IMG/VR virus record: IMGVR_UViG_2703718869_000013
Span: 32,001 to 96,000 of that record
DNA from: a virus
Taxonomy: Duplodnaviria; Heunggongvirae; Uroviricota; Caudoviricetes
DNA: 64,000 nucleotides
Direction: 5' to 3' (one strand)
Every line of letters starts with the position of its first letter. Position 1 is the first letter of the stretch. This document shows, piece after piece, positions 26,982 through 34,628 of this stretch. Below the pieces are notes generated by a model. It saw only the letters and a program-made list of their open reading frames with translations. It did not search any database and had not been told where the DNA came from. Position numbers and translations under genes: made by a program.

Positions 26982-27421
26982 TTGGCTGGGGTGTATGCGC
27001 TCTTGCGTTAGCCTTAGCCGATCGCTATTTGCTAAAACGCAAGGACATCACGCATTTAGAACTTGGTGATGTGGAAATTAAACCGGGTTTCATCCGGGTG
27101 CCGTTCAAATACCGGTCTAAATTCCCGTTTTTGCGCGGCGCAACGGTCAGATATTGGATCCGCGATGTTCAGAAGCCAACGACAGTGATTGAAGGCGAAC
27201 AACGTTGTCTGACGTCGGCTGAACAGGGCGAAAACAGTGAATGGTTGTACATACCCACTGAATATATGGGTAAAGGAGAACGGCTGTGGCATTTCAACGT
27301 CATGGTTACGCATGGCGACTCGTTCATTAACCCGTTGTATCGGATTTTCCCTGTTACTCAGCAAATCCGCAGAAGTTACGTAATAAATCTCGCACAGGAT
27401 GTGTCAGATGACGAAAAATAA
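26978..27421 (+). CDS. Antiholin-like protein (LydB position)
   Basis: 147-aa ORF overlapping holin stop; by position. Confidence 0.45.
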   Translation: MIGWGVCALALALADRYLLKRKDITHLELGDVEIKPGFIRVPFKYRSKFPFLRGATVRYWIRDVQKPTTVIEGEQRCLTSAEQGENSEWLYIPTEYMGKGERLWHFNVMVTHGDSFINPLYRIFPVTQQIRRSYVINLAQDVSDDEK

Positions 27422-28010
27422 GTATGCAACGGTCGATTTTGACCAGGTTAATGAAAAGGGGCTGAAATCCCTTATCGCGGCGATCAATAAAACCGGTGTT
27501 ACGGTAATTGAGGTTGACTCCAGCAACCGCGCAACAACGAAAGATGGCGTTAAAGTTAAAACCGCAAAGCTGGTTCTTAACGACGGACAAATTCTTGCCA
27601 TACAGGTAAACGATACTGGCGATATATCGTCTGTGAGGCTGAATGGAAAAGCTATTCCTAACGCTCAGTCGCCGGATATCAAGACGCTTGGTACCGTCAT
27701 GGGGCAAGCGGCCCGCAAAAACTCCGCAAAATTCCAGAAATCACTGATCGCCAAAGCGAAACGTGTTGCCAATCCGGTAGACAAGAAACCGGCAGTAAAA
27801 TCCAACTTTCAGCGCCTGCAAGAGGCAAAACAGCGGAATGCTCAGGTGGTTGCCGCTTATAAATCAGCGCAGAACTCGGTGTCTTTCAATCAACAGCAGA
27901 TCACTGATTTGCGGGCGAAGCTGGATAAGGAGACAGGCCGACTCAATAACGAAAAGGCCCGAAATGGCGAACTCAAACGCCGTCTTAAGCAACTGAAAGC
28001 AGGAAATTAA
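27399..28010 (+). CDS. Hdf-like protein (shares NSAKFQ-containing segment with the next, DarA-sized gene)
   Basis: 203 aa; internal similarity to 28012-29931 product (..NSAKFQ(K/R)..); coiled-coil C-terminus. Confidence 0.5.
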   Translation: MCQMTKNKYATVDFDQVNEKGLKSLIAAINKTGVTVIEVDSSNRATTKDGVKVKTAKLVLNDGQILAIQVNDTGDISSVRLNGKAIPNAQSPDIKTLGTVMGQAARKNSAKFQKSLIAKAKRVANPVDKKPAVKSNFQRLQEAKQRNAQVVAAYKSAQNSVSFNQQQITDLRAKLDKETGRLNNEKARNGELKRRLKQLKAGN

Positions 28011-28011
28011 C

Positions 28012-29931
28012 ATGGAACAGTTCAATATCAATAAAGGGGTGGCGATCAAGCCTGGGCTTGACGTGCTTCCCCCGCCAGTGACTGATGATGAATATCGCGC
28101 ATTAATGGCCGGTGAGGACCGCTATCTGATGACGGAATCCAACACCCTGGAGGAAATCGAGGCTACGTTCTTCTATGACACGCCGATCCACTGGTGTGCT
28201 ACGGATTTACTGGAGGCGATTAGTTCTACTCGTTTGCAGCTACACCGGACCATGCAGGCATTTGTCCGGGCATTGAACCAGAAGCTGAATGGTACCGGAA
28301 TCTCTGCGGGGAGTGATAAAACGGGGGACGTGGCCCAGAACGGTGCACGCGCGATCGGCGGGGCTGAAATTGGCCGGGCGCGTAACGTTAACGGGCTGCC
28401 GGTTCTGCCAGCCATTATTCCGCTCAGTGATGGTCAGACTATCAGCATTCTGTTTCATAGCCCGACAGCGGAAAACCGGATCACCAATAGCGATACGCTG
28501 ATTGCTTTCCAGTTCTTACTGAATAAAAAAGACGTTACTCATACCGTTGCTCCGATGAGTGGACGTGATATGACGCTGGCGCAGGTCACCATGAAACTTG
28601 CCAACCTTGCAGAGAAAAACTCGGCAAAATTCCAGCGTGCGCAGAAGAAGAAAAAAGCCCTGGTTGATGAAATAACCCAACTACAGGCTGACAGTGACCA
28701 GAAAGAGGATGCCATGAGCGACCTCGCGGATCAGGTGGCAGCGGTAGAAGGCCAGAAGGCAGATCTGGAGCAGAAAATTAACGTGGTTGCTTCGGAAGCG
28801 GATTCTCTTTATCAAGAAAATGAGCGTTTGCAGGCGGAGATTGATCAGCTCAATCGCACTGGTGGGCGCGATACCATTGCTCCTGCGGGGATGACTGGTG
28901 GGCACTCTCGCGTGCTGACGGATCGCCTTGCCAGTATCAAAAATCGTATGCATATGGACGGGGAAGCGACGCTCAGTAATGGTGCATCAATGAAGCAATT
29001 CATTGGGGATGGCGAAGGGTATATCCAGTTAACCGATCCGGATGGCAGCGTATACATGATCAAGGCTAAATCCATACAGGGTGTGGACATGGCAGATGCG
29101 ATCGGCAAGCTGTTTAAAGCCTATAAAGCGGGTAATGTATCGGAATACCTGGTCCAACCAGAAGAACATAAACCGGAAAACGTCGAACCTGAACCAGCGG
29201 AGGATACCGGTAGCTCTTCGCCTGAACCAGAAGTCTCTGTAGGTGCATATCGATATGCCCTGCAAATGCGTCCGGCGGCCCCTGGCGCAATACCTGAAGG
29301 TAACAAAGCAATTCTGCCGCGCCCTGATGAAGGTGACCCGTATTATGAATATGCACGCTACGGCATTGCTACTTACGATACCCCGCTTTCTGATCAGCAA
29401 ATGAGTGAGTACGACCTGAAGTTATTGCCTCGCGAGGATTCTTTCGACTTCCTGGCGAAGACACTTACTAATGGTCCGTTTGGCAAATATGCACAAAAAG
29501 CTCTGGATCTGGCCACCAGCTCACCAGACGAGTTCCGCGTAATGCTGAAAACTCAGTTTCAAAAAACTTTCCCCAATATTGCGTTTCCGGGGGGCGCTGG
29601 CACCGAGAAAATGGTGCAGAGCATGATCAATGCATTGCAGGCCGAAGTCGGTGAGATTACTCAGCCAGAACCTGCCCCGGCACAGCCTGATGAAACGGTT
29701 AGCGAAGCAGATGCAGAGGCTAATAAAGCCATTGAATATCTCAATAACGTGATGGATATGCAAAGCACTGACATGGCGGAGATCCGTAACGCCCGGGGTA
29801 ATGTCCGGGAAGCGATTGCAGCCCTTCAGGCTGCCGGGCGTTTTGAGGAAAACGAAGAGCTGGTTAATGGCGCTGCTCGCCACCTGGCTGATCTGCTGGT
29901 AGCAATCCAGAAAGCGGGGGTAGCGGCATGA
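28012..29931 (+). CDS. DarA-like antirestriction/head-internal protein
   Basis: 639-aa ORF in the position and size expected for P1 DarA; no catalytic motif recognised. Confidence 0.5.
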   Translation: MEQFNINKGVAIKPGLDVLPPPVTDDEYRALMAGEDRYLMTESNTLEEIEATFFYDTPIHWCATDLLEAISSTRLQLHRTMQAFVRALNQKLNGTGISAGSDKTGDVAQNGARAIGGAEIGRARNVNGLPVLPAIIPLSDGQTISILFHSPTAENRITNSDTLIAFQFLLNKKDVTHTVAPMSGRDMTLAQVTMKLANLAEKNSAKFQRAQKKKKALVDEITQLQADSDQKEDAMSDLADQVAAVEGQKADLEQKINVVASEADSLYQENERLQAEIDQLNRTGGRDTIAPAGMTGGHSRVLTDRLASIKNRMHMDGEATLSNGASMKQFIGDGEGYIQLTDPDGSVYMIKAKSIQGVDMADAIGKLFKAYKAGNVSEYLVQPEEHKPENVEPEPAEDTGSSSPEPEVSVGAYRYALQMRPAAPGAIPEGNKAILPRPDEGDPYYEYARYGIATYDTPLSDQQMSEYDLKLLPREDSFDFLAKTLTNGPFGKYAQKALDLATSSPDEFRVMLKTQFQKTFPNIAFPGGAGTEKMVQSMINALQAEVGEITQPEPAPAQPDETVSEADAEANKAIEYLNNVMDMQSTDMAEIRNARGNVREAIAALQAAGRFEENEELVNGAARHLADLLVAIQKAGVAA

Positions 29932-30293
29932 CACTATCAGCTATTGAGTTAATGGACCTCAGCGATAAGTTGGATGCTCTGATGTCCAAAGCGGCTACCG
30001 CGAGTGGCATGGAGTTGCTGGATATCAGCGATGAAATTGACCAGATCATGCAACAGATGGGGTACGGCGCGTCTGGCGACGGTAGTGGCGAGGAGAAACA
30101 ACCTTCGGAACATGATGGTGTGCCAAAACTGGTTGCTGATTTCCTGGCTGATAAATTCGTCGATCAGAGCACCGATGCATTTATCGGTACGTTGCAGGAC
30201 TTGAGTCAATATGTTGGCACATACATCGATCTGGACCAGGTTAAACAGCACACGGCGGCATGGATAGCCGCCAACATTAAAGAGGCAGCGTGA
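29928..30293 (+). CDS. Hypothetical acidic protein (DdrA position)
   Basis: 121-aa ORF overlapping previous stop; by position. Confidence 0.45.
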   Translation: MTLSAIELMDLSDKLDALMSKAATASGMELLDISDEIDQIMQQMGYGASGDGSGEEKQPSEHDGVPKLVADFLADKFVDQSTDAFIGTLQDLSQYVGTYIDLDQVKQHTAAWIAANIKEAA

Positions 30294-31625
30294 CATCCTC
30301 CACGCCCCGAAGGGCGTGGATTCCTGCTACGTTCAGGCTGTCGCCTGAATCATTTCGGTGGGTTCCTGCTTCAACGGGCGGCCTGACTGCACCATCCCTC
30401 CACAGGCAAGTACGGCGTGTCCCGCCGCTAAAATGTTACGAGCGCCGTTTACATCGGCGTTCGCTGTATATCCACATACCTGGCATCTGAATTTACTTTG
30501 TGACAGGCGATTTTCTTTCGCTGTATGACCACAGCACGCGCAACGCTGGCTTGTGTACGCTGGCGGAACAGCAAGCACCTGACCGCCACGCCAGAGCTGC
30601 TTGTACTCAAGCTGGCGGCGCATTTCATACCAGCCCTGATCCAGTATCGAACGGTTTAAACCTGATTTTGCCCGGACATTGCGACCCGGATGACTTATCG
30701 TTCCCGCCGCTGACTTTGACATGTATTTAACCTTCAAATCCTCAATGACAATCATTGCGTGGTTTTTGCTGATGATCGTTGTGACTTTATGAAGGTAGTC
30801 TCTGCGGATATTTGCGATACGAAAATGCAGTCGCTGTATTTTGCGTTTCTGCTTCTGCCAGTTGTTGCTGAATTTGACCTTGCGGCTTAACTGTCGCTGA
30901 AGTCTCGCCAGCTTCTTCTGGTTTTTCTGAAAACTGTTTACAGGCTCAAAGACTGTGCCATCTGACAGCGTGGCGAGTTTAGCCACGCCAGCATCCAGCC
31001 CGATCATTGATGCTGAAGGGTGAACCGGAGTGGATATTTCACTTTCTGTCTGAATACTGATGTACCACTTACCGCAGGACTGGCTGACAGTGACATTTTT
31101 CACAACTCCCGTGACCTGACGGCTATTCCGGTAGCGCATCCAGCCCAGTTTCGGCAGAAAAATACGGCTGTTTTCCTGATCGAGCTTAACGCCCTGCGGG
31201 TAGCGAAATGCATCATTCTGTCCCCGCTTTTTGAATCGGGGAAAAGCAGCCCGATTCTGGAAGAAGTTTTTGTAAGCCCGCTCAAGGTCTTTCAGTGACT
31301 GTTGCAATGGCTGTGAGGGAGAATCTATAAGCCATTCGGTTTCAGTGTCTTTTTTCCACTCAACCAACCAGGAAGCCATTTTCGTGTAAGGGATGTATTT
31401 TTTACCGGCCTCATGATTCTCATTCTGAAGCGCCAGAGCACGGTTGAAAACGAAACGACAAGCTCCGGCAAAGTGCCTCATTTGACACTCCTGTTGACCA
31501 TCTGGTTTTAACCGGAATTTGAATGACACCTGTTGTTTCATGTCACTATTTTAAGCAAAAATAGCCGGGAGGAAAACTGTGCCTTATATCCCCACTATGA
31601 GGAGCGTAGGGGGCGGCACATTGGA
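30294..31625 (-). mobile_element. TnpB-only IS200/IS605-family element (approximate ends)
   Basis: Single tnpB gene, no tnpA; perfect hairpin CCACGCCC-cgaa-GGGCGTGG at about 30300-30319 next to the tnpB 3' end; imperfect hairpin near the other end; element ends are inferred. Confidence 0.6.
30333..31541 (-). CDS. tnpB: TnpB (RuvC-like, zinc-ribbon) transposon-associated nuclease
   Basis: 402 aa; C-terminal CACCGH..C..CGY zinc-ribbon and RuvC-like segments typical of OrfB/TnpB. Confidence 0.85.
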
Positions 31626-31640
31626 TAAGGCGTAACAGGG

Positions 31641-34628
31641 ATGAGCTTAAGCGATCAGGTGGTAATGGCCACCAGCATAGAAACGCTGATCGAGCTGCTA
31701 AAGAACCTGCCCGATTATGGGCGGGTTTCGTATGTGGTGACAGCGAAGGGAGACGAGGTAAAAACAGCGTTTGATATCGTCGATGCCTCAGTTCTTTTGG
31801 TATCCAATACTCTGGATGGGAAAATTAATCCAGACTATCCCCAGGAACTTCAGCCGCGCGACCGGACCCGCGCATCCAGCCTTCTTCAGGTTAACCAGAT
31901 ATCCAAAGATTTGCGGCCTGCTCAGCTTACCGATTCCGGTTTATCCAGCCATGGCGCGCCGATAATTGGTGAGGACAATGCCGTTGAGTCAGGTAATGGA
32001 CGGACCATGGGGATCATCAAAGCCTATCAGGACGGCAATGCGGATCGGTATCGTGAGTACCTGATTGATCATGCGACCGAATTCGGCATACGACCTGAAA
32101 AGGTTGAATCAATGACGGCTCCGGTACTGGTGCGCCGCCGGTTAACTAAGGTTGACCGCGTTCAGTTTGCCAAGGACTCAAATATTTCTGATCTTCAGGA
32201 AATGGCAGCCAGTGAAAAGGCTTTTGTTGATGCCGACAGCATAACACCGGCGATGATGGCGCTTTTTAACCCGTCAGAAAGCGGAGATCTGCTTAGCCGC
32301 AGTAATGACGCGTTTATTCGCGGATTTATGACGCAAGTTGGTGCCACACAGGCGGCTGGCCTTGTAACTGAAGATGGGCGACCAACACGGCAACTTGTTG
32401 ACCGTATACAAAACGCGATCTTTGCCAAGGCATATAAGGATGCGCGCCTGGTAAGGATGGTTGCAGAAGAACCTGATCCGGATATGCGTAATGTTCTGAC
32501 GGCGCTTAATGCGGCAGCCAATGATTTTGTCCAGATGCAGGCTTTATCAGGAGAAGCGCACAAGCAGGCTGTGACAACTATTGTTGATGGCATTGAGACA
32601 GCGGATAGCCTCGATAAAAAGGCGCTGGCGGCATTGAAAGATGCGGTAGACCTGGTAAGGCAATCGAAGGAGTCAGGCCAGCATATTACCGATGTTATTG
32701 CTCAGGGGGATATGTTCAGCGAAACGGCCCCGGAAGTGAAAGCACTCGCGTTGTTCATCGTCGCGAATAACCGTAGCGCGAAGCGTATGGCCACCGCCTT
32801 TAAGTTGATGGCGCAACGTATCAATGATGAGTTACAGCACCAGGGCCAGGCGCTCGGGGATATGTTTGGCGGCGGCGATGTGTCGTTACAGGATATCCTT
32901 CGCCAAGTATCTCAGGAACTGGAAAACGAAGGTATGCAAGGGATATCTGGCGGTCTTTTCGAGTCAGCTTCTGGCGGTAGTTACAACGGTGTTGCTCCAT
33001 ATACCAGCTTGCTATTACATCGGGCATCCGGCATCAAAGACATTATTCATCTGATCAGGCTGCTTTCCCGTACAGATCCCCAGGATGAACAGCTTGTTCA
33101 AGTGCTTGCGCATTTTGTTCGAATGCCTGTTGCCGACGTGAAAAAATGGTGCCGATTATTCGGTATCAGCAATTCGTTACTTCGCGGCTTGTTAAATCAC
33201 GCATCCTCCCTTGGGCGCGATGGCTTTGACGAGATAGCGCAGGCGATAAAAAACGGAGATATGCCACCAGCTATTGACTGGTTTTCCATTCGCCCAACCA
33301 GGGTGAAAGCATTCCTTAGCGCGGCGCATTCGGCATCACCATTGGCAGAAATGGTTCAGAGGTTATCGCTCATATTCACAGACCATACCGCGTTGGGTGA
33401 TCTGACTCTGGACGAGATGAAAGAAGCCTCCATTCAGTGGGCCGATCAACAAAATGAGGTTAACTCAGACTTCTTGCCAGCATTCAGGAAGGCCGTTAGT
33501 AAAGCGGATGATGCCCGTGGAATTCTGAAGGCATTTAAGGCATTGCAAAGTCGGGTTAATAAACATGTCGGTGATATCGATGGGGTAACGGCGGAAGGCA
33601 GGGATATCCTTAAAGAGCACGGCATAACGCCAGAGTTTATTGATGAGATCAGGACGGATATGCAGCGTGAGGTCGTATCGTCCCTGCAAATTGTAGTCAG
33701 AGCGTTGGCGGATGCTAATCCGAAGAGTGCGGCCATTGTTAACCGGGTTATTGGTGATATTGAAGCATCGGAGGGCATGGGGGCGCTGAAACACTTCCTT
33801 TCGCGAGCGTTTAATCCTAACGGCAATATTCTCCCCGGCATTATTGGTGAGGCTAAAAAGTATGTCAGCGAAGAAGAACTTGAGCATCTTGACCAACTAC
33901 TTAAGCGATTCTCATATAACCCGCAGACACGCTGGCAAATGAATCAGCGAAGTATGGGTTCGGTCCACGAGAAAGTGTTATCCGCCATGAACAGTGCGAT
34001 CGCCAACTCATCCGTATCTGAAGAAAAAGCTCTTGAGTGGGCCGACTCTTTTATCACGGAAGAAGTGGAAGAAGCCCGCGCTGGACAGAATGGTGGGATA
34101 GACCTGCGCAAGGAACTTGCTGATATTTATCGCCTGACCGGCGGTAAAATTTCGACCTTATCAAAGGTGGTTCACCACCAGGGAAGGGCATATGCAAATC
34201 TTAATGGTGTTGTTGCTGTCAATTTGAACGATGAAAATGCAAGTGCACTGTGGCACGAGCTGGGTCATCATCTTGAGTACAGTAACCCAGGTTTGTTAGA
34301 GAAAGCCCGGTCATTCCTGAAGGCCAATGTTGAAGGGGATAAGCCATCTTTCGTCAATATCGGTGGGCGTGGCAAGCCTGAATGGTGCTTCAGATCTCGA
34401 TTGAGTAATATTTATATGGCGAAGGTATACCCGCCAGCCTCAGTAAGTAACACCGGGAAAATTCGGCAGAAATCACCGACTATTTCCAAAACGTCAGCAA
34501 CGGAAGTATTCTCTATGGCTCTTCAGTTGTATCATGGCAAAGAGGCCGCTGCCGCATCACTGATGAATGGTGACGGATTGCTGGAACTGTTATTAGGTGT
34601 GGCAAAGGAGCTAAATAATGCAGATTAA
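31641..34628 (+). CDS. Large hypothetical protein (DdrB position in Dar-like operon)
   Basis: 995-aa ORF; by position and size only. Confidence 0.45.
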   Translation: MSLSDQVVMATSIETLIELLKNLPDYGRVSYVVTAKGDEVKTAFDIVDASVLLVSNTLDGKINPDYPQELQPRDRTRASSLLQVNQISKDLRPAQLTDSGLSSHGAPIIGEDNAVESGNGRTMGIIKAYQDGNADRYREYLIDHATEFGIRPEKVESMTAPVLVRRRLTKVDRVQFAKDSNISDLQEMAASEKAFVDADSITPAMMALFNPSESGDLLSRSNDAFIRGFMTQVGATQAAGLVTEDGRPTRQLVDRIQNAIFAKAYKDARLVRMVAEEPDPDMRNVLTALNAAANDFVQMQALSGEAHKQAVTTIVDGIETADSLDKKALAALKDAVDLVRQSKESGQHITDVIAQGDMFSETAPEVKALALFIVANNRSAKRMATAFKLMAQRINDELQHQGQALGDMFGGGDVSLQDILRQVSQELENEGMQGISGGLFESASGGSYNGVAPYTSLLLHRASGIKDIIHLIRLLSRTDPQDEQLVQVLAHFVRMPVADVKKWCRLFGISNSLLRGLLNHASSLGRDGFDEIAQAIKNGDMPPAIDWFSIRPTRVKAFLSAAHSASPLAEMVQRLSLIFTDHTALGDLTLDEMKEASIQWADQQNEVNSDFLPAFRKAVSKADDARGILKAFKALQSRVNKHVGDIDGVTAEGRDILKEHGITPEFIDEIRTDMQREVVSSLQIVVRALADANPKSAAIVNRVIGDIEASEGMGALKHFLSRAFNPNGNILPGIIGEAKKYVSEEELEHLDQLLKRFSYNPQTRWQMNQRSMGSVHEKVLSAMNSAIANSSVSEEKALEWADSFITEEVEEARAGQNGGIDLRKELADIYRLTGGKISTLSKVVHHQGRAYANLNGVVAVNLNDENASALWHELGHHLEYSNPGLLEKARSFLKANVEGDKPSFVNIGGRGKPEWCFRSRLSNIYMAKVYPPASVSNTGKIRQKSPTISKTSATEVFSMALQLYHGKEAAAASLMNGDGLLELLLGVAKELNNAD

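What the first reader, a model, noticed from the sequence alone, without database searches (positions are those of the whole stretch)
30294..31625. TnpB-only IS200/IS605-type element inserted in the Dar-like operon
A 402-aa TnpB with zinc-ribbon and RuvC-like motifs lies antisense between two Dar-operon genes with no tnpA nearby. A perfect hairpin CCACGCCC-cgaa-GGGCGTGG sits immediately beyond the tnpB 3' end and abuts the upstream gene's stop codon. TnpB proteins are RNA-guided nucleases whose guide RNA comes from the tnpB 3' end, so this could be an active guide-carrying element; it also separates the downstream Dar genes from their upstream promoter.
Basis: partly seen in the sequence, partly recalled or inferred. 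Interest (0 to 1): 0.45.

Follow-up and report, generated by a model that had tools for sequence, protein, structure and literature searches.

The report
IS609-like TnpB element in P1 dar operon
A 1.3-kb transposase-less insertion sequence with an apparently intact RNA-guided nuclease (TnpB) and its guide RNA sits between two anti-restriction genes of a P1-like phage-plasmid; the same insertion is already annotated in published P1 relatives, so it is a correct but largely ordinary finding.

Summary
Comparison with the empty site in phage P1 puts the insertion at window 30290-31624 (1335 bp, no target duplication). It lies 3' of a TTAT that is the reverse complement of the ddrA stop codon. It carries one gene, a 402-aa TnpB with an intact RuvC triad and zinc ribbon, and no tnpA anywhere in the window. 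The reported hairpin is the right-end hairpin. It closes a ~147-nt guide-RNA scaffold whose structure is supported by compensatory changes in 35 relatives.

The family is IS609/insQ (IS200/IS605), present in about 92% of complete E. coli genomes. This same insertion is already annotated in phages RCS47 and SJ46 and in plasmid pSvP1. It occupies about 14% of P1-like plasmids; P1 and P7 lack it.

The predicted guide is antisense to the ddrA 3' end. With the TTAT motif it matches exactly the empty site of element-free P1 relatives, as the published TnpB homing and plasmid gene-drive model predicts.

Less ordinary points:
- Every copy at this site has a non-canonical left end and ends TCAC rather than the family-invariant TCAA, so it may no longer be movable by TnpA.
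- Occupancy does not follow flank haplotype.

Nuclease activity, RNA expression and any polar effect on ddrB were not tested.

The parts
30290..31624 (-). Whole IS609-like tnpB-only element, 1335 bp, no target-site duplication
   Evidence: Alignment to the P1 empty site ...GAGGCAGC|ATAAGGCG.... The same 1335-bp insert is in RCS47, SJ46, pSvP1_F, MBT-5 and others.
31625..31628 (-). Target and predicted TAM: TTAT on the minus strand (ATAA on the + strand), immediately 5' of the left end
   Evidence: Family survey of left-end flanks: TTAT in 19 and TTAC in 5 distinct copies.
31542..31624 (-). Left end (83 nt up to the tnpB ATG). The outer helix TGTGCC/GGCACA (31620-31578) is kept. The inner hairpin (31612-31590, CCCC.AC/GTGGGG with a 10-nt loop) is non-canonical. 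The family's TAAAA guide tetranucleotide region is missing.
   Evidence: This variant is found only at this site.
30333..31541 (-). tnpB, 402 aa: HTH, RuvC (D183, E267, D363) and zinc ribbon (C334, C337, C353, C356)
30290..30436 (-). Predicted guide RNA (omega/reRNA) scaffold, about 147 nt, overlapping the last 104 nt of tnpB (through its stop codon) and the right end. Includes a long-range closing helix, 30436-30431 with 30298-30293.
   Evidence: RNAalifold plus pair counts on 35 sequences: 96.9% paired, 10 pairs with compensatory changes, 0 of 500 shuffles as good, slid controls 37-47% paired. Sub-threshold Rfam hits to RAGATH-18, HgcC and sot0042 on this strand.
30299..30320 (-).
30290..30293 (-). 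Right-end terminal tetranucleotide TCAC; the family is invariably TCAA
30270..30289 (-). Predicted guide segment, read out of the right end into the flank: GCUGCCUCUUUAAUGUUGGC, antisense to the last codons of ddrA
   Evidence: Position relative to the right end. By analogy with the ISDra2 reRNA, whose last ~16 nt come from the flank (PMC8612924). Matches the empty sites of P1, P7 and three other P1-like records exactly.
29928..30293 (+). ddrA, 121 aa; its last base and its stop codon are supplied by the element
31641..34628 (+). ddrB, 995 aa, now 1347 nt downstream of the ddrA stop codon instead of 12 nt

Best explanation
This is a non-autonomous (tnpA-less) member of the IS609/insQ group of the IS200/IS605 family.

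Origin. It entered a P1-like phage-plasmid once, 3' of the TTAT that overlaps the ddrA stop codon, by single-strand 'peel-and-paste' transposition with TnpA supplied in trans. That step is inferred.

Content. It encodes a TnpB RNA-guided nuclease that looks catalytically competent. The last ~147 nt of the element form the guide-RNA scaffold. Transcription running out of the right end would add a ~16-20-nt guide antisense to the ddrA 3' end.

Predicted action. TnpB with this RNA should recognise TTAT followed by GCTGCCTCTTTAATGT.... That is the rejoined or never-occupied ddrA/ddrB junction of P1 relatives, not the occupied site. Cutting the empty site would trigger recombinational repair from an occupied copy (retention or homing), or destroy an element-free competitor. 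This is inferred from published TnpB work and was not tested here.

Mobility. The left-end hairpin and guide tetranucleotide and the right-end cleavage tetranucleotide depart from the otherwise invariant family pattern. The copy is therefore probably no longer a substrate for TnpA. It would then persist by vertical inheritance, by recombination between P1-like genomes, and possibly by TnpB-driven homing.
For: Boundaries and the absence of a target duplication come from the P1 empty site.

TnpB looks intact. The domains are present. D183, E267 and D363 align with D191, E278 and D361 of ISDra2 TnpB, and there are two CxxC pairs. D191A and E278A abolish ISDra2 activity (PMC8612924).

The guide-RNA structure is supported by covariation. 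Many G-U pairs fit only the tnpB-sense RNA.

The target rule fits the family. TTAT or TTAC lies 5' of the left end, and it covaries with the AAAA or AAAG tetranucleotide 5' of the left-end hairpin.

The empty sites of P1, P7 and three other P1-like records equal TTAT plus the predicted 20-nt guide. In the window that protospacer occurs only at the occupied junction, preceded by TCAC.

A single origin is indicated. The left-end variant and the TCAC end are found only at this site: in 64 E. coli genomes, 15 metagenome or viral contigs, and all 8 copies read.

The mechanism has published support. TnpB cuts the donor joint using the same motif as TnpA (10.1101/2023.03.14.532601). TnpB acts as a gene drive and an 'anti-self' defence in plasmids (10.1101/2025.02.20.638934).
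Against: There is no expression or cleavage data.

No convincing promoter was found for tnpB or the guide RNA. There is no Shine-Dalgarno sequence before the ATG, and promoter-like hits are at chance level.

The terminal A-to-C change also alters the last scaffold base, with unknown effect on the RNA.

One same-site copy (vB_EcoM-813R1) is frameshifted.

dN/dS of 0.13-0.28 among same-site copies is weakened as evidence. At 30 of 75 polymorphic sites both alleles occur in copies elsewhere, which implies gene conversion with paralogues.

The outer left-end helix shows a compensatory change. The odd left end could therefore be a functional variant rather than decay.
Confidence: 0.8

Rival explanations
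1. Inert relic. The element is a stranded passenger with no current activity. TnpB and the RNA are not expressed or not functional, and its 14% frequency reflects hitch-hiking on a successful P1-like lineage plus ordinary recombination.
For: No tnpA. Non-canonical left end and TCAC right end. No convincing promoter or ribosome-binding site. One frameshifted copy. Apparent purifying selection may be imported by gene conversion.
Against: The ORF is intact in 7 of 8 same-site copies despite dS up to 0.11. All catalytic and zinc ligands are kept. The guide-RNA helices are intact in the window copy. Nearly identical elements sit in different flank haplotypes.
Confidence: 0.3
2. Ordinary mobile non-autonomous IS. 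The copy is still excised and inserted by a TnpA supplied in trans, and the empty sites on identical flank haplotypes are precise TnpA excisions.
For: tnpB-only copies with an 83-nt left end are common at many sites, in L003, L007-L010, L018 and L039. An empty-site plasmid (L111) shares the window's proximal flank haplotype exactly. The outer left-end helix is maintained.
Against: This left-end variant and the TCAC end have never been seen at any other site. The left end lacks the tetranucleotide that covaries with the target in the rest of the family. The left end folds no better than shuffled sequence. The chromosomal IS609 tnpA copies examined are pseudogenes.
Confidence: 0.15
3. Nuclease-dead, exapted TnpB acting as an RNA-guided repressor (TldR-like), for instance of dar transcription.
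For: The guide is complementary to the dar operon DNA at the ddrA end.
Against: The RuvC triad and zinc ribbon are intact and the protein is full length. The guide arises simply from the insertion position, as in any TnpB element.
Confidence: 0.03

Closest known systems
IS609 / insQ of E. coli (IS200/IS605 family), and the 'IS609-like sequence' of P1-like plasmid pSvP1 (Venturini et al. 2019, PMC6906374)
   Same: The nucleotide sequence is 95% identical to chromosomal insQ copies from 16 nt inside tnpB to the right end, and the protein is 92% identical. The pSvP1_F copy (L015) is the very same insertion, 13 nt different. The left cleavage site is TTAT, as that paper reports for IS609.
   Different: Chromosomal IS609 has a divergent tnpA (a pseudogene in the copies examined) upstream of tnpB. 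This copy instead has an 83-nt left end of a variant type, and TCAC instead of TCAA at the right cleavage site.
insQ insertion annotated in phages RCS47 (NC_042128) and SJ46 (NC_031129)
   Same: Same site, same length and same orientation, at 98.6% and 97.4% identity over 3.4 kb.
   Different: 25 and 56 nucleotide differences within the element. SJ46 and MINF_9A have the right-end hairpin loop inverted and a stem mismatch.
ISDra2 TnpB-reRNA (Karvelis et al. 2021, PMC8612924; PDB 8bf8, 8exa, 8h1j)
   Same: Same domain order and catalytic residues, aligned over residues 5-376 at E = 2e-50. The guide RNA is derived from the tnpB 3' end plus the right end, with the guide taken from the flank.
   Different: The predicted motif is TTAT rather than TTGAT. 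The element here has no tnpA. Activity was not tested here.
IS608 of Helicobacter pylori (TnpA end-recognition rules)
   Same: The right-end guide and cleavage tetranucleotides in the family are GAAT and TCAA, as I recall for IS608. In the family, the left-end tetranucleotide (AAAA or AAAG) covaries with the target (TTAT or TTAC). This parallels IS608's AAAG with TTAC. The IS608 values are from memory of Barabas 2008 and Guynet 2009 and were not re-read.
   Different: The window copy breaks both rules: it has no AAAA 5' of the left-end hairpin, and TCAC at the right end.
TnpB plasmid gene drive and anti-self defence (Mears et al. 2025, bioRxiv 10.1101/2025.02.20.638934)
   Same: A TnpB-bearing IS sits in a conserved region of a low-copy plasmid, and its guide targets IS-free versions of the same plasmid.
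   Different: That work used engineered plasmids, including the F plasmid, and does not mention phages. Here the carrier is a phage-plasmid and the evidence is only comparative.
Rfam HgcC (RF00062), sot0042 (RF02656) and RAGATH-18 (RF03064)
   Same: Partial matches on the tnpB-sense strand at the tnpB 3' end, including the terminal hairpin and the GGAGGAUGUCA tail.
   Different: All are far below the gathering scores (22.6 against 50, 17.3 against 88, 28.1 against 44.9), so this is not a member by Rfam criteria.

Membership tests
IS200/IS605 family (IS609 group) | Insertion without target-site duplication, 3' of a specific tetranucleotide | tested here: met
   P1 empty site compared with the window: TTAT|element|GCTGCC, with no duplication. 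TTAT or TTAC flanks the left end in 24 distinct relatives.
IS200/IS605 family (IS609 group) | Subterminal hairpin at the right end, about 10 nt from the cleavage site | tested here: met
   9-bp hairpin at 30299-30320, with its foot 9 nt from the end at 30290. Conserved with covariation.
IS200/IS605 family (IS609 group) | Subterminal hairpin at the left end resembling the right-end hairpin, preceded by a guide tetranucleotide that pairs with the target | tested here: not met
   The canonical CCCCGTCC-TTCA-GGGCGGGG preceded by AAAA is replaced by a 4+2-bp stem with a 10-nt loop. The fold is -6.9 kcal/mol at z = -0.2, against -13.1 kcal/mol at z = -3.3 for a canonical left end.
IS200/IS605 family (IS609 group) | Right-end cleavage tetranucleotide TCAA | tested here: not met
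   TCAC in the window and in all same-site copies. TCAA in 33 of 33 distinct relatives, and in 46 or more distinct right ends.
IS200/IS605 family (IS609 group) | Y1 (HUH) transposase TnpA in the element (autonomous form) | tested here: not met
   No tnpA in the element or in the 64-kb window. It is therefore a non-autonomous, tnpB-only form, like L003, L007-L010 and L018.
TnpB RNA-guided nucleases (OMEGA) | HTH/WED, RuvC with a D-E-D triad, and a zinc-ribbon (TNB) domain | tested here: met
   Pfam and NCBIfam hits. D183, E267, D363 and C334, C337, C353, C356.
TnpB RNA-guided nucleases (OMEGA) | Structured guide-RNA scaffold spanning the tnpB 3' end and the right end | tested here: met
   49-pair consensus, 96.9% paired, 10 covarying pairs, and better than the shuffled and slid controls.
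TnpB RNA-guided nucleases (OMEGA) | Expression of the RNA and TAM-dependent, guide-dependent DNA cleavage | not testable with these tools
   Needs small-RNA sequencing and interference or cleavage assays.
Nuclease-dead TnpB-like regulators (TldR) | Loss of RuvC catalytic residues or a truncated C-terminus | tested here: not met
   The triad is intact and the protein is full length.
Rfam HgcC / sot0042 / RAGATH-18 | Score at or above the family gathering threshold | tested here: not met
   22.6 against 50, 17.3 against 88, and 28.1 against 44.9 bits.

The most novel reading that the evidence does not exclude
The copy can no longer be moved by TnpA, because both ends are altered. It survives in P1-like phage-plasmids as a self-contained TnpB/guide-RNA homing cassette. 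It would cut the ddrA/ddrB junction of element-free P1 relatives that enter or co-reside in the cell. The cut genome would either be converted to the occupied allele, with short co-conversion tracts, or eliminated as a competitor. That would be an RNA-guided gene drive and exclusion weapon operating between phages.
Probability: 0.3. Interest if true: 0.55.

Novelty: already known. Interest (0 to 1): 0.27.

Why it matters
As an annotation it adds little. The family is ubiquitous in E. coli, and this very insertion is already in published P1-like genomes.

It offers a natural test of the TnpB homing and gene-drive model in a phage-plasmid:
- occupied and empty alleles coexist in the population, about 14% against 86%;
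- the target is defined to the base;
- the ends look TnpA-incompetent, so nuclease-driven spread could be separated from transposition.

It also matters practically for P1-based tools. A resident P1-like prophage carrying this element might cut incoming P1 vectors at the ddrA/ddrB junction. Separately, the insertion may alter expression of the anti-restriction protein DdrB.

Tried and rejected
- **Rfam scan.** Only sub-threshold hits, so no curated family can be claimed.
- **tnpA search in the window.** Nothing found.
- **Variant left end at other sites.** Searched in E. coli genomes, metagenome contigs and IMG/VR and found only at the ddrB junction. The idea that it is a separately mobile subtype is therefore unsupported.
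- **Promoter and terminator scan.** Counts are at chance level, so no claim is made about polarity on ddrB or about a tnpB or guide-RNA promoter.
- **dN/dS as proof of selection.** Downgraded after finding that 30 of 75 polymorphisms are shared with paralogous copies, which indicates gene conversion.
- **Flank phylogeny as proof of homing.** Occupancy is incongruent with flank haplotypes. However, the P1-like flanks are mosaic everywhere, so ordinary recombination or precise excision cannot be excluded.
- **Nuclease-dead regulator (TldR-like).** Rejected because the catalytic residues are intact.
- **A first regex-based left-end survey timed out.** It was redone with BLAST.

Full report
**1. 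What is in the sequence**

The window is a P1-like phage-plasmid. It is about 98% identical over 24 kb to ~98-kb E. coli plasmids. By comparison with the annotated P1 genome, the local genes are:
- hdf, 27399-28010;
- darA, 28012-29931;
- ddrA, 29928-30293;
- ddrB, 31641-34628.

Between ddrA and ddrB, on the opposite strand, lies a 402-aa ORF at 30333-31541. It matches Pfam HTH_OrfB_IS605, OrfB_IS605 and Cas12f1-like_TNB. It also matches the NCBIfam model 'RNA-guided endonuclease TnpB family protein' at 384 bits against a cutoff of 100.

The hairpin CCACGCCC-CGAA-GGGCGTGG is at 30300-30319 and extends to 9 bp.

**2. Exact boundaries**

P1 reads ...AAAGAGGCAGC|ATAAGGCGTAAC... at the ddrA/ddrB junction. 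The window has 1335 extra bases (30290-31624) at the bar and no duplicated bases.

In the tnpB orientation the junctions are ...CGCCTTAT|CCAATGTGCC... at the left end and ...GGAGGATGTCAC|GCTGCCTCTTT... at the right end.

The TTAT target is the reverse complement of the last base of ddrA codon 121 plus its TAA stop codon. After insertion the element supplies that base and a new stop codon (GCG TGA), so DdrA is unchanged in length.

ddrB, which in P1 starts 12 nt after ddrA, now starts 1347 nt after it.

**3. Family and prior knowledge**

The element belongs to the IS609/insQ group of IS200/IS605. Of 5426 complete E. coli genomes, 5015 contain a relative, with a median of 2 places per genome.

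Chromosomal copies are about 95% identical from 16 nt inside tnpB to the right end. They have a divergently oriented tnpA pseudogene upstream. Full-length relatives in other Enterobacterales encode a 146-aa Y1 TnpA. The window has none.

The same insertion, at the same site and in the same orientation, is annotated:
- as insQ in phages RCS47 and SJ46;
- as 'IS200/IS605 family transposase IS609' in vB_EcoM-813R1;
- in plasmid pSvP1_F.

Venturini et al. 2019 (PMC6906374) list an 'IS609-like sequence' in pSvP1. They also list a canonical IS609 at another P1 site in pJIE250-3, with cleavage sites TTAT (left) and TCAA (right).

The feature is thus already in the public record, though it has been described as a transposase and not analysed as an RNA-guided nuclease.

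**4. Frequency**

In complete E. coli genomes, 452 carry the ddrB start region. Of these, 64 (about 14%) carry the occupied junction. The same 64 are recovered with the left end alone and with the right-end junction.

P1, P7, JL22, phi456 and most P1-like plasmids are empty. The gene is therefore not a fixed ancestral part of P1.

**5. Is TnpB intact?**

Alignment to ISDra2 TnpB (PDB 8bf8, E = 2e-50) places D183, E267 and D363 opposite D191, E278 and D361. The two CxxC pairs (C334, C337, C353, C356) are present. D191A and E278A abolish ISDra2 activity (PMC8612924). D361 is the third RuvC residue from my memory of the structures.

Seven of eight same-site copies have the full ORF; the 813R1 copy is frameshifted.

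Pairwise dN/dS among same-site copies is 0.13-0.28, with dS up to 0.11. However, at 30 of 75 polymorphic sites both alleles also occur in only four copies from other loci. Much of the variation was therefore probably imported by gene conversion, and this is weak evidence for selection at this locus.

**6. Guide RNA**

The last 231 nt of the element were aligned with 34 other copies: one further same-site copy (MINF_9A, L011) and 33 distinct relatives at 76-97% identity from Escherichia, Citrobacter, Serratia, Pantoea, Xenorhabdus, Photorhabdus, Morganella, Klebsiella, Brenneria and others.

The RNAalifold consensus has 49 pairs:
- 96.9% of cells are paired, against 37-47% when partners are slid by 1-3 columns;
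- 10 pairs show compensatory double changes, in 57 cells, against 3-13 cells in the slid controls;
- 0 of 500 column shuffles reach these values.

Numerous G-U pairs would be A-C on the other strand, so the structure belongs to the tnpB-sense RNA.

A long-range helix (ACAUUU at 30436-30431 with GGAUGU at 30298-30293) closes a ~147-nt scaffold at 30290-30436. That size is similar to the ~150-nt ISDra2 reRNA.

Rfam gives only sub-threshold hits there. HgcC and sot0042 are archaeal RNAs that overlap TnpB 3' ends, and RAGATH-18 is the third hit.

**7. Predicted target**

By analogy with ISDra2, the guide is the 16-20 nt following the right end: GCUGCCUCUUUAAUGUUGGC (30289 down to 30270), antisense to the end of ddrA.

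Left-end flanks in the family are TTAT (19) or TTAC (5), so the motif is predicted to be TTAT.

TTAT plus this guide is exactly the empty site of P1, P7, vB_EcoM-Ro157c2YLVW and two plasmids. Two other empty plasmids carry changes in the motif or seed region: L115 has TTAC|T... and L116 has a mismatch at guide position 11.

In the window the protospacer occurs only at the occupied junction, preceded by TCAC rather than TTAT.

This matches the published model in which TnpB cuts the donor joint or vacant site using the same motif as TnpA (Meers et al.; Karvelis et al.). It also matches the demonstration that TnpB-bearing IS elements act as a gene drive and as an 'anti-self' defence in plasmids (Mears et al.). 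That preprint does not mention phages. Nothing about expression or cleavage was testable here.

**8. Non-canonical ends**

This is the least ordinary part of the finding.

*Canonical left ends.* All 24 canonical left ends surveyed read TTAY|C..GTGCGCCGT-AAAA/G-CCCCGTCC-TTCA-GGGCGGGG-ATATAAGG. The tetranucleotide 5' of the hairpin covaries with the target:
- AAAA with TTAT, 18 copies;
- AAAG with TTAC, 4 copies;
- 2 exceptions.

This is the pattern I recall for IS608, where the guide tetranucleotide pairs with the cleavage site. That recollection was not re-read.

*The window's left end.* The outer helix is kept, with a compensatory change (TGTGCC/GGCACA). The TAAAA is lost, and the hairpin is replaced by a 4+2-bp stem with a 10-nt loop. 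As DNA it folds at -6.9 kcal/mol (z = -0.2), against -13.1 kcal/mol (z = -3.3) for a canonical left end.

*The right end.* All 33 distinct relatives end in TCAA. The window and all seven other same-site copies read in full end in TCAC. So do all but one of the metagenome and viral contigs whose right end could be read; the exception is L096, the recombinant contig described in section 11.

*Distribution.* The variant left end was found only at this site, in 64 E. coli genomes and 15 metagenome or IMG/VR contigs.

*Inference.* There was a single insertion event, and this copy is probably a poor or dead substrate for TnpA. This is an inference only. The compensatory change in the outer helix leaves open that it is a functional variant.

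**9. Gain, loss or homing signals**

Over 800 nt on each side, occupied and empty genomes are intermingled:
- The window's right flank is identical to the empty E. fergusonii plasmid p22C037LT2. Its left flank is identical to that plasmid for the proximal 180 nt, including two variants seen in no other sequence.
- The element most similar to the window's is in plasmid MBT-5: 2 SNPs plus a loop inversion in 1335 nt. It sits in flanks that differ by 14 and 16 per 800 nt, with the nearest differences at -51 and +168.
- pSvP1's left flank is closest to the empty P7, and SJ46's is closest to the empty Ro157c2YLVW.

The element has therefore moved between backbones, or been lost precisely, recently and with breakpoints close to its ends. 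This is what TnpB-triggered homing would produce. However, the flanks are mosaic throughout, so ordinary recombination or precise excision cannot be excluded.

**10. Effect on the dar operon**

The element physically separates ddrB from hdf-darA-ddrA and removes the tight ddrA-ddrB spacing.

On the + strand only one weak terminator-like site is predicted inside the element (30907-30922), and counts are at chance level.

Read-through late transcription would be antisense to tnpB and its RNA; this is an inference.

The Dar background, including the part DdrB plays in behaviour towards EcoB and EcoK restriction, is summarised in PMC12810830. Whether DdrB levels change in occupied phages is untested.

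**11. Other things seen in related sequences**

- The right-end hairpin loop is inverted between near-identical same-site copies.
- One metagenome contig (L096) joins the P1 left-end flank to a TCAA right end and the flank of a chromosomal IS609 site.
- A canonical tnpB-only IS609 occupies a second site in P1-like plasmids.
- The noticed-in-passing list gives the details of each.

**12. Verdict**

The element is a further copy of an already annotated IS609-like tnpB-only insertion in P1-like phage-plasmids, so the novelty rating is 'already known'.

The modest extra interest lies in three things:
- the altered ends, shared by all copies at this site;
- the exact match of the predicted guide and motif to the empty allele carried by about 86% of P1-like plasmids;
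- the decoupling of occupancy from flank haplotype.

Together these make a phage-to-phage TnpB homing or exclusion scenario testable.

Noticed in passing
window 30308-30311; L014, L011 and L012 at the homologous position: The 4-nt loop of the right-end hairpin is inverted between otherwise near-identical same-site copies. In the tnpB sense it is TTCG in the window, RCS47, pSA186_4, 813R1 and pSvP1_F, and CGAA in MBT-5, MINF_9A and SJ46. In SJ46 and MINF_9A the flip comes with an A-C stem mismatch that would be a G-U pair on the other strand. This looks like a palindrome or template-switch inversion and implies that the hairpin forms in vivo.
   Followed up: partly
L096 (metagenome contig SKEB01000180.1): The left end has the P1 ddrB flank and the variant left end. 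The right end is canonical (TCAA) and is followed by the flank of a chromosomal IS609 copy at the yjfZ/ytfB site (as in L006). This is either recombination between the phage-plasmid copy and a chromosomal copy (a cointegrate) or a chimeric assembly.
   Followed up: no
L009 (E. albertii p2014EL-1348-2, locus 1503-2835): A second P1-like plasmid site, between the head-processing gene and the lysozyme region, carries a tnpB-only IS609 with fully canonical ends (TTAT ... TCAA). This appears to be the site reported for pJIE250-3 in PMC6906374. P1-like plasmids have therefore been hit independently at least twice by this family.
   Followed up: partly
window 30253-30273 (minus strand): A terminator-like hairpin (TGGCGGC-TATCCAT-GCCGCCG followed by TGTGCTGTTT) starts 17 nt beyond the right end. 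That is just after a 16-nt guide, so it could define the 3' end of the guide RNA. The count of such sites in the region is at chance level.
   Followed up: no
L115 (NZ_CP020522.1) and L116 (NZ_OQ423472.1), empty ddrA/ddrB junctions: Two empty-site P1-like plasmids carry changes in the predicted target: TTAC|TCTGCC... (motif plus guide position 1) and a T-to-C change at guide position 11. They could be neutral variants or alleles that escape TnpB cutting.
   Followed up: no
L003-L070, left ends (family survey): The tetranucleotide 5' of the left-end hairpin covaries with the flanking target: AAAA with TTAT in 18 copies, AAAG with TTAC in 4, and 2 exceptions. This is a natural-variation confirmation of the guide and cleavage-site pairing rule in this family.
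   Followed up: yes
Hits H20-H25: Fragments or whole copies of the same tnpB occur in unrelated phage records. Morganella phage IME1369_01 has a full copy annotated 'putative virulence protein'. Filamentous phage If1 has 643 bp at 95.5% identity within ORF348. Aeromonas phage AP1 has 291 bp at 96%. The last two are odd hosts for an enterobacterial IS and could be contamination or mis-assembly.
   Followed up: no
window 31523-31552 (+ strand): A promoter-like site (ATGACA-18-TATTTT) lies at the tnpB start/left-end boundary and points outward through the left end towards ddrB. It could restore ddrB transcription, but it is a 9-of-12 match at chance frequency.
   Followed up: no
window 31525-31541 and the left end; alignment positions 8-29 of tnpB: The first ~30 nt of tnpB plus the left end hold most of the 15 positions that are fixed in same-site copies and absent from the four outgroup copies compared. 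Homology to chromosomal IS609 starts only 16 nt inside the ORF. This suggests that the 5' part of the element has a different ancestry from the rest.
   Followed up: partly
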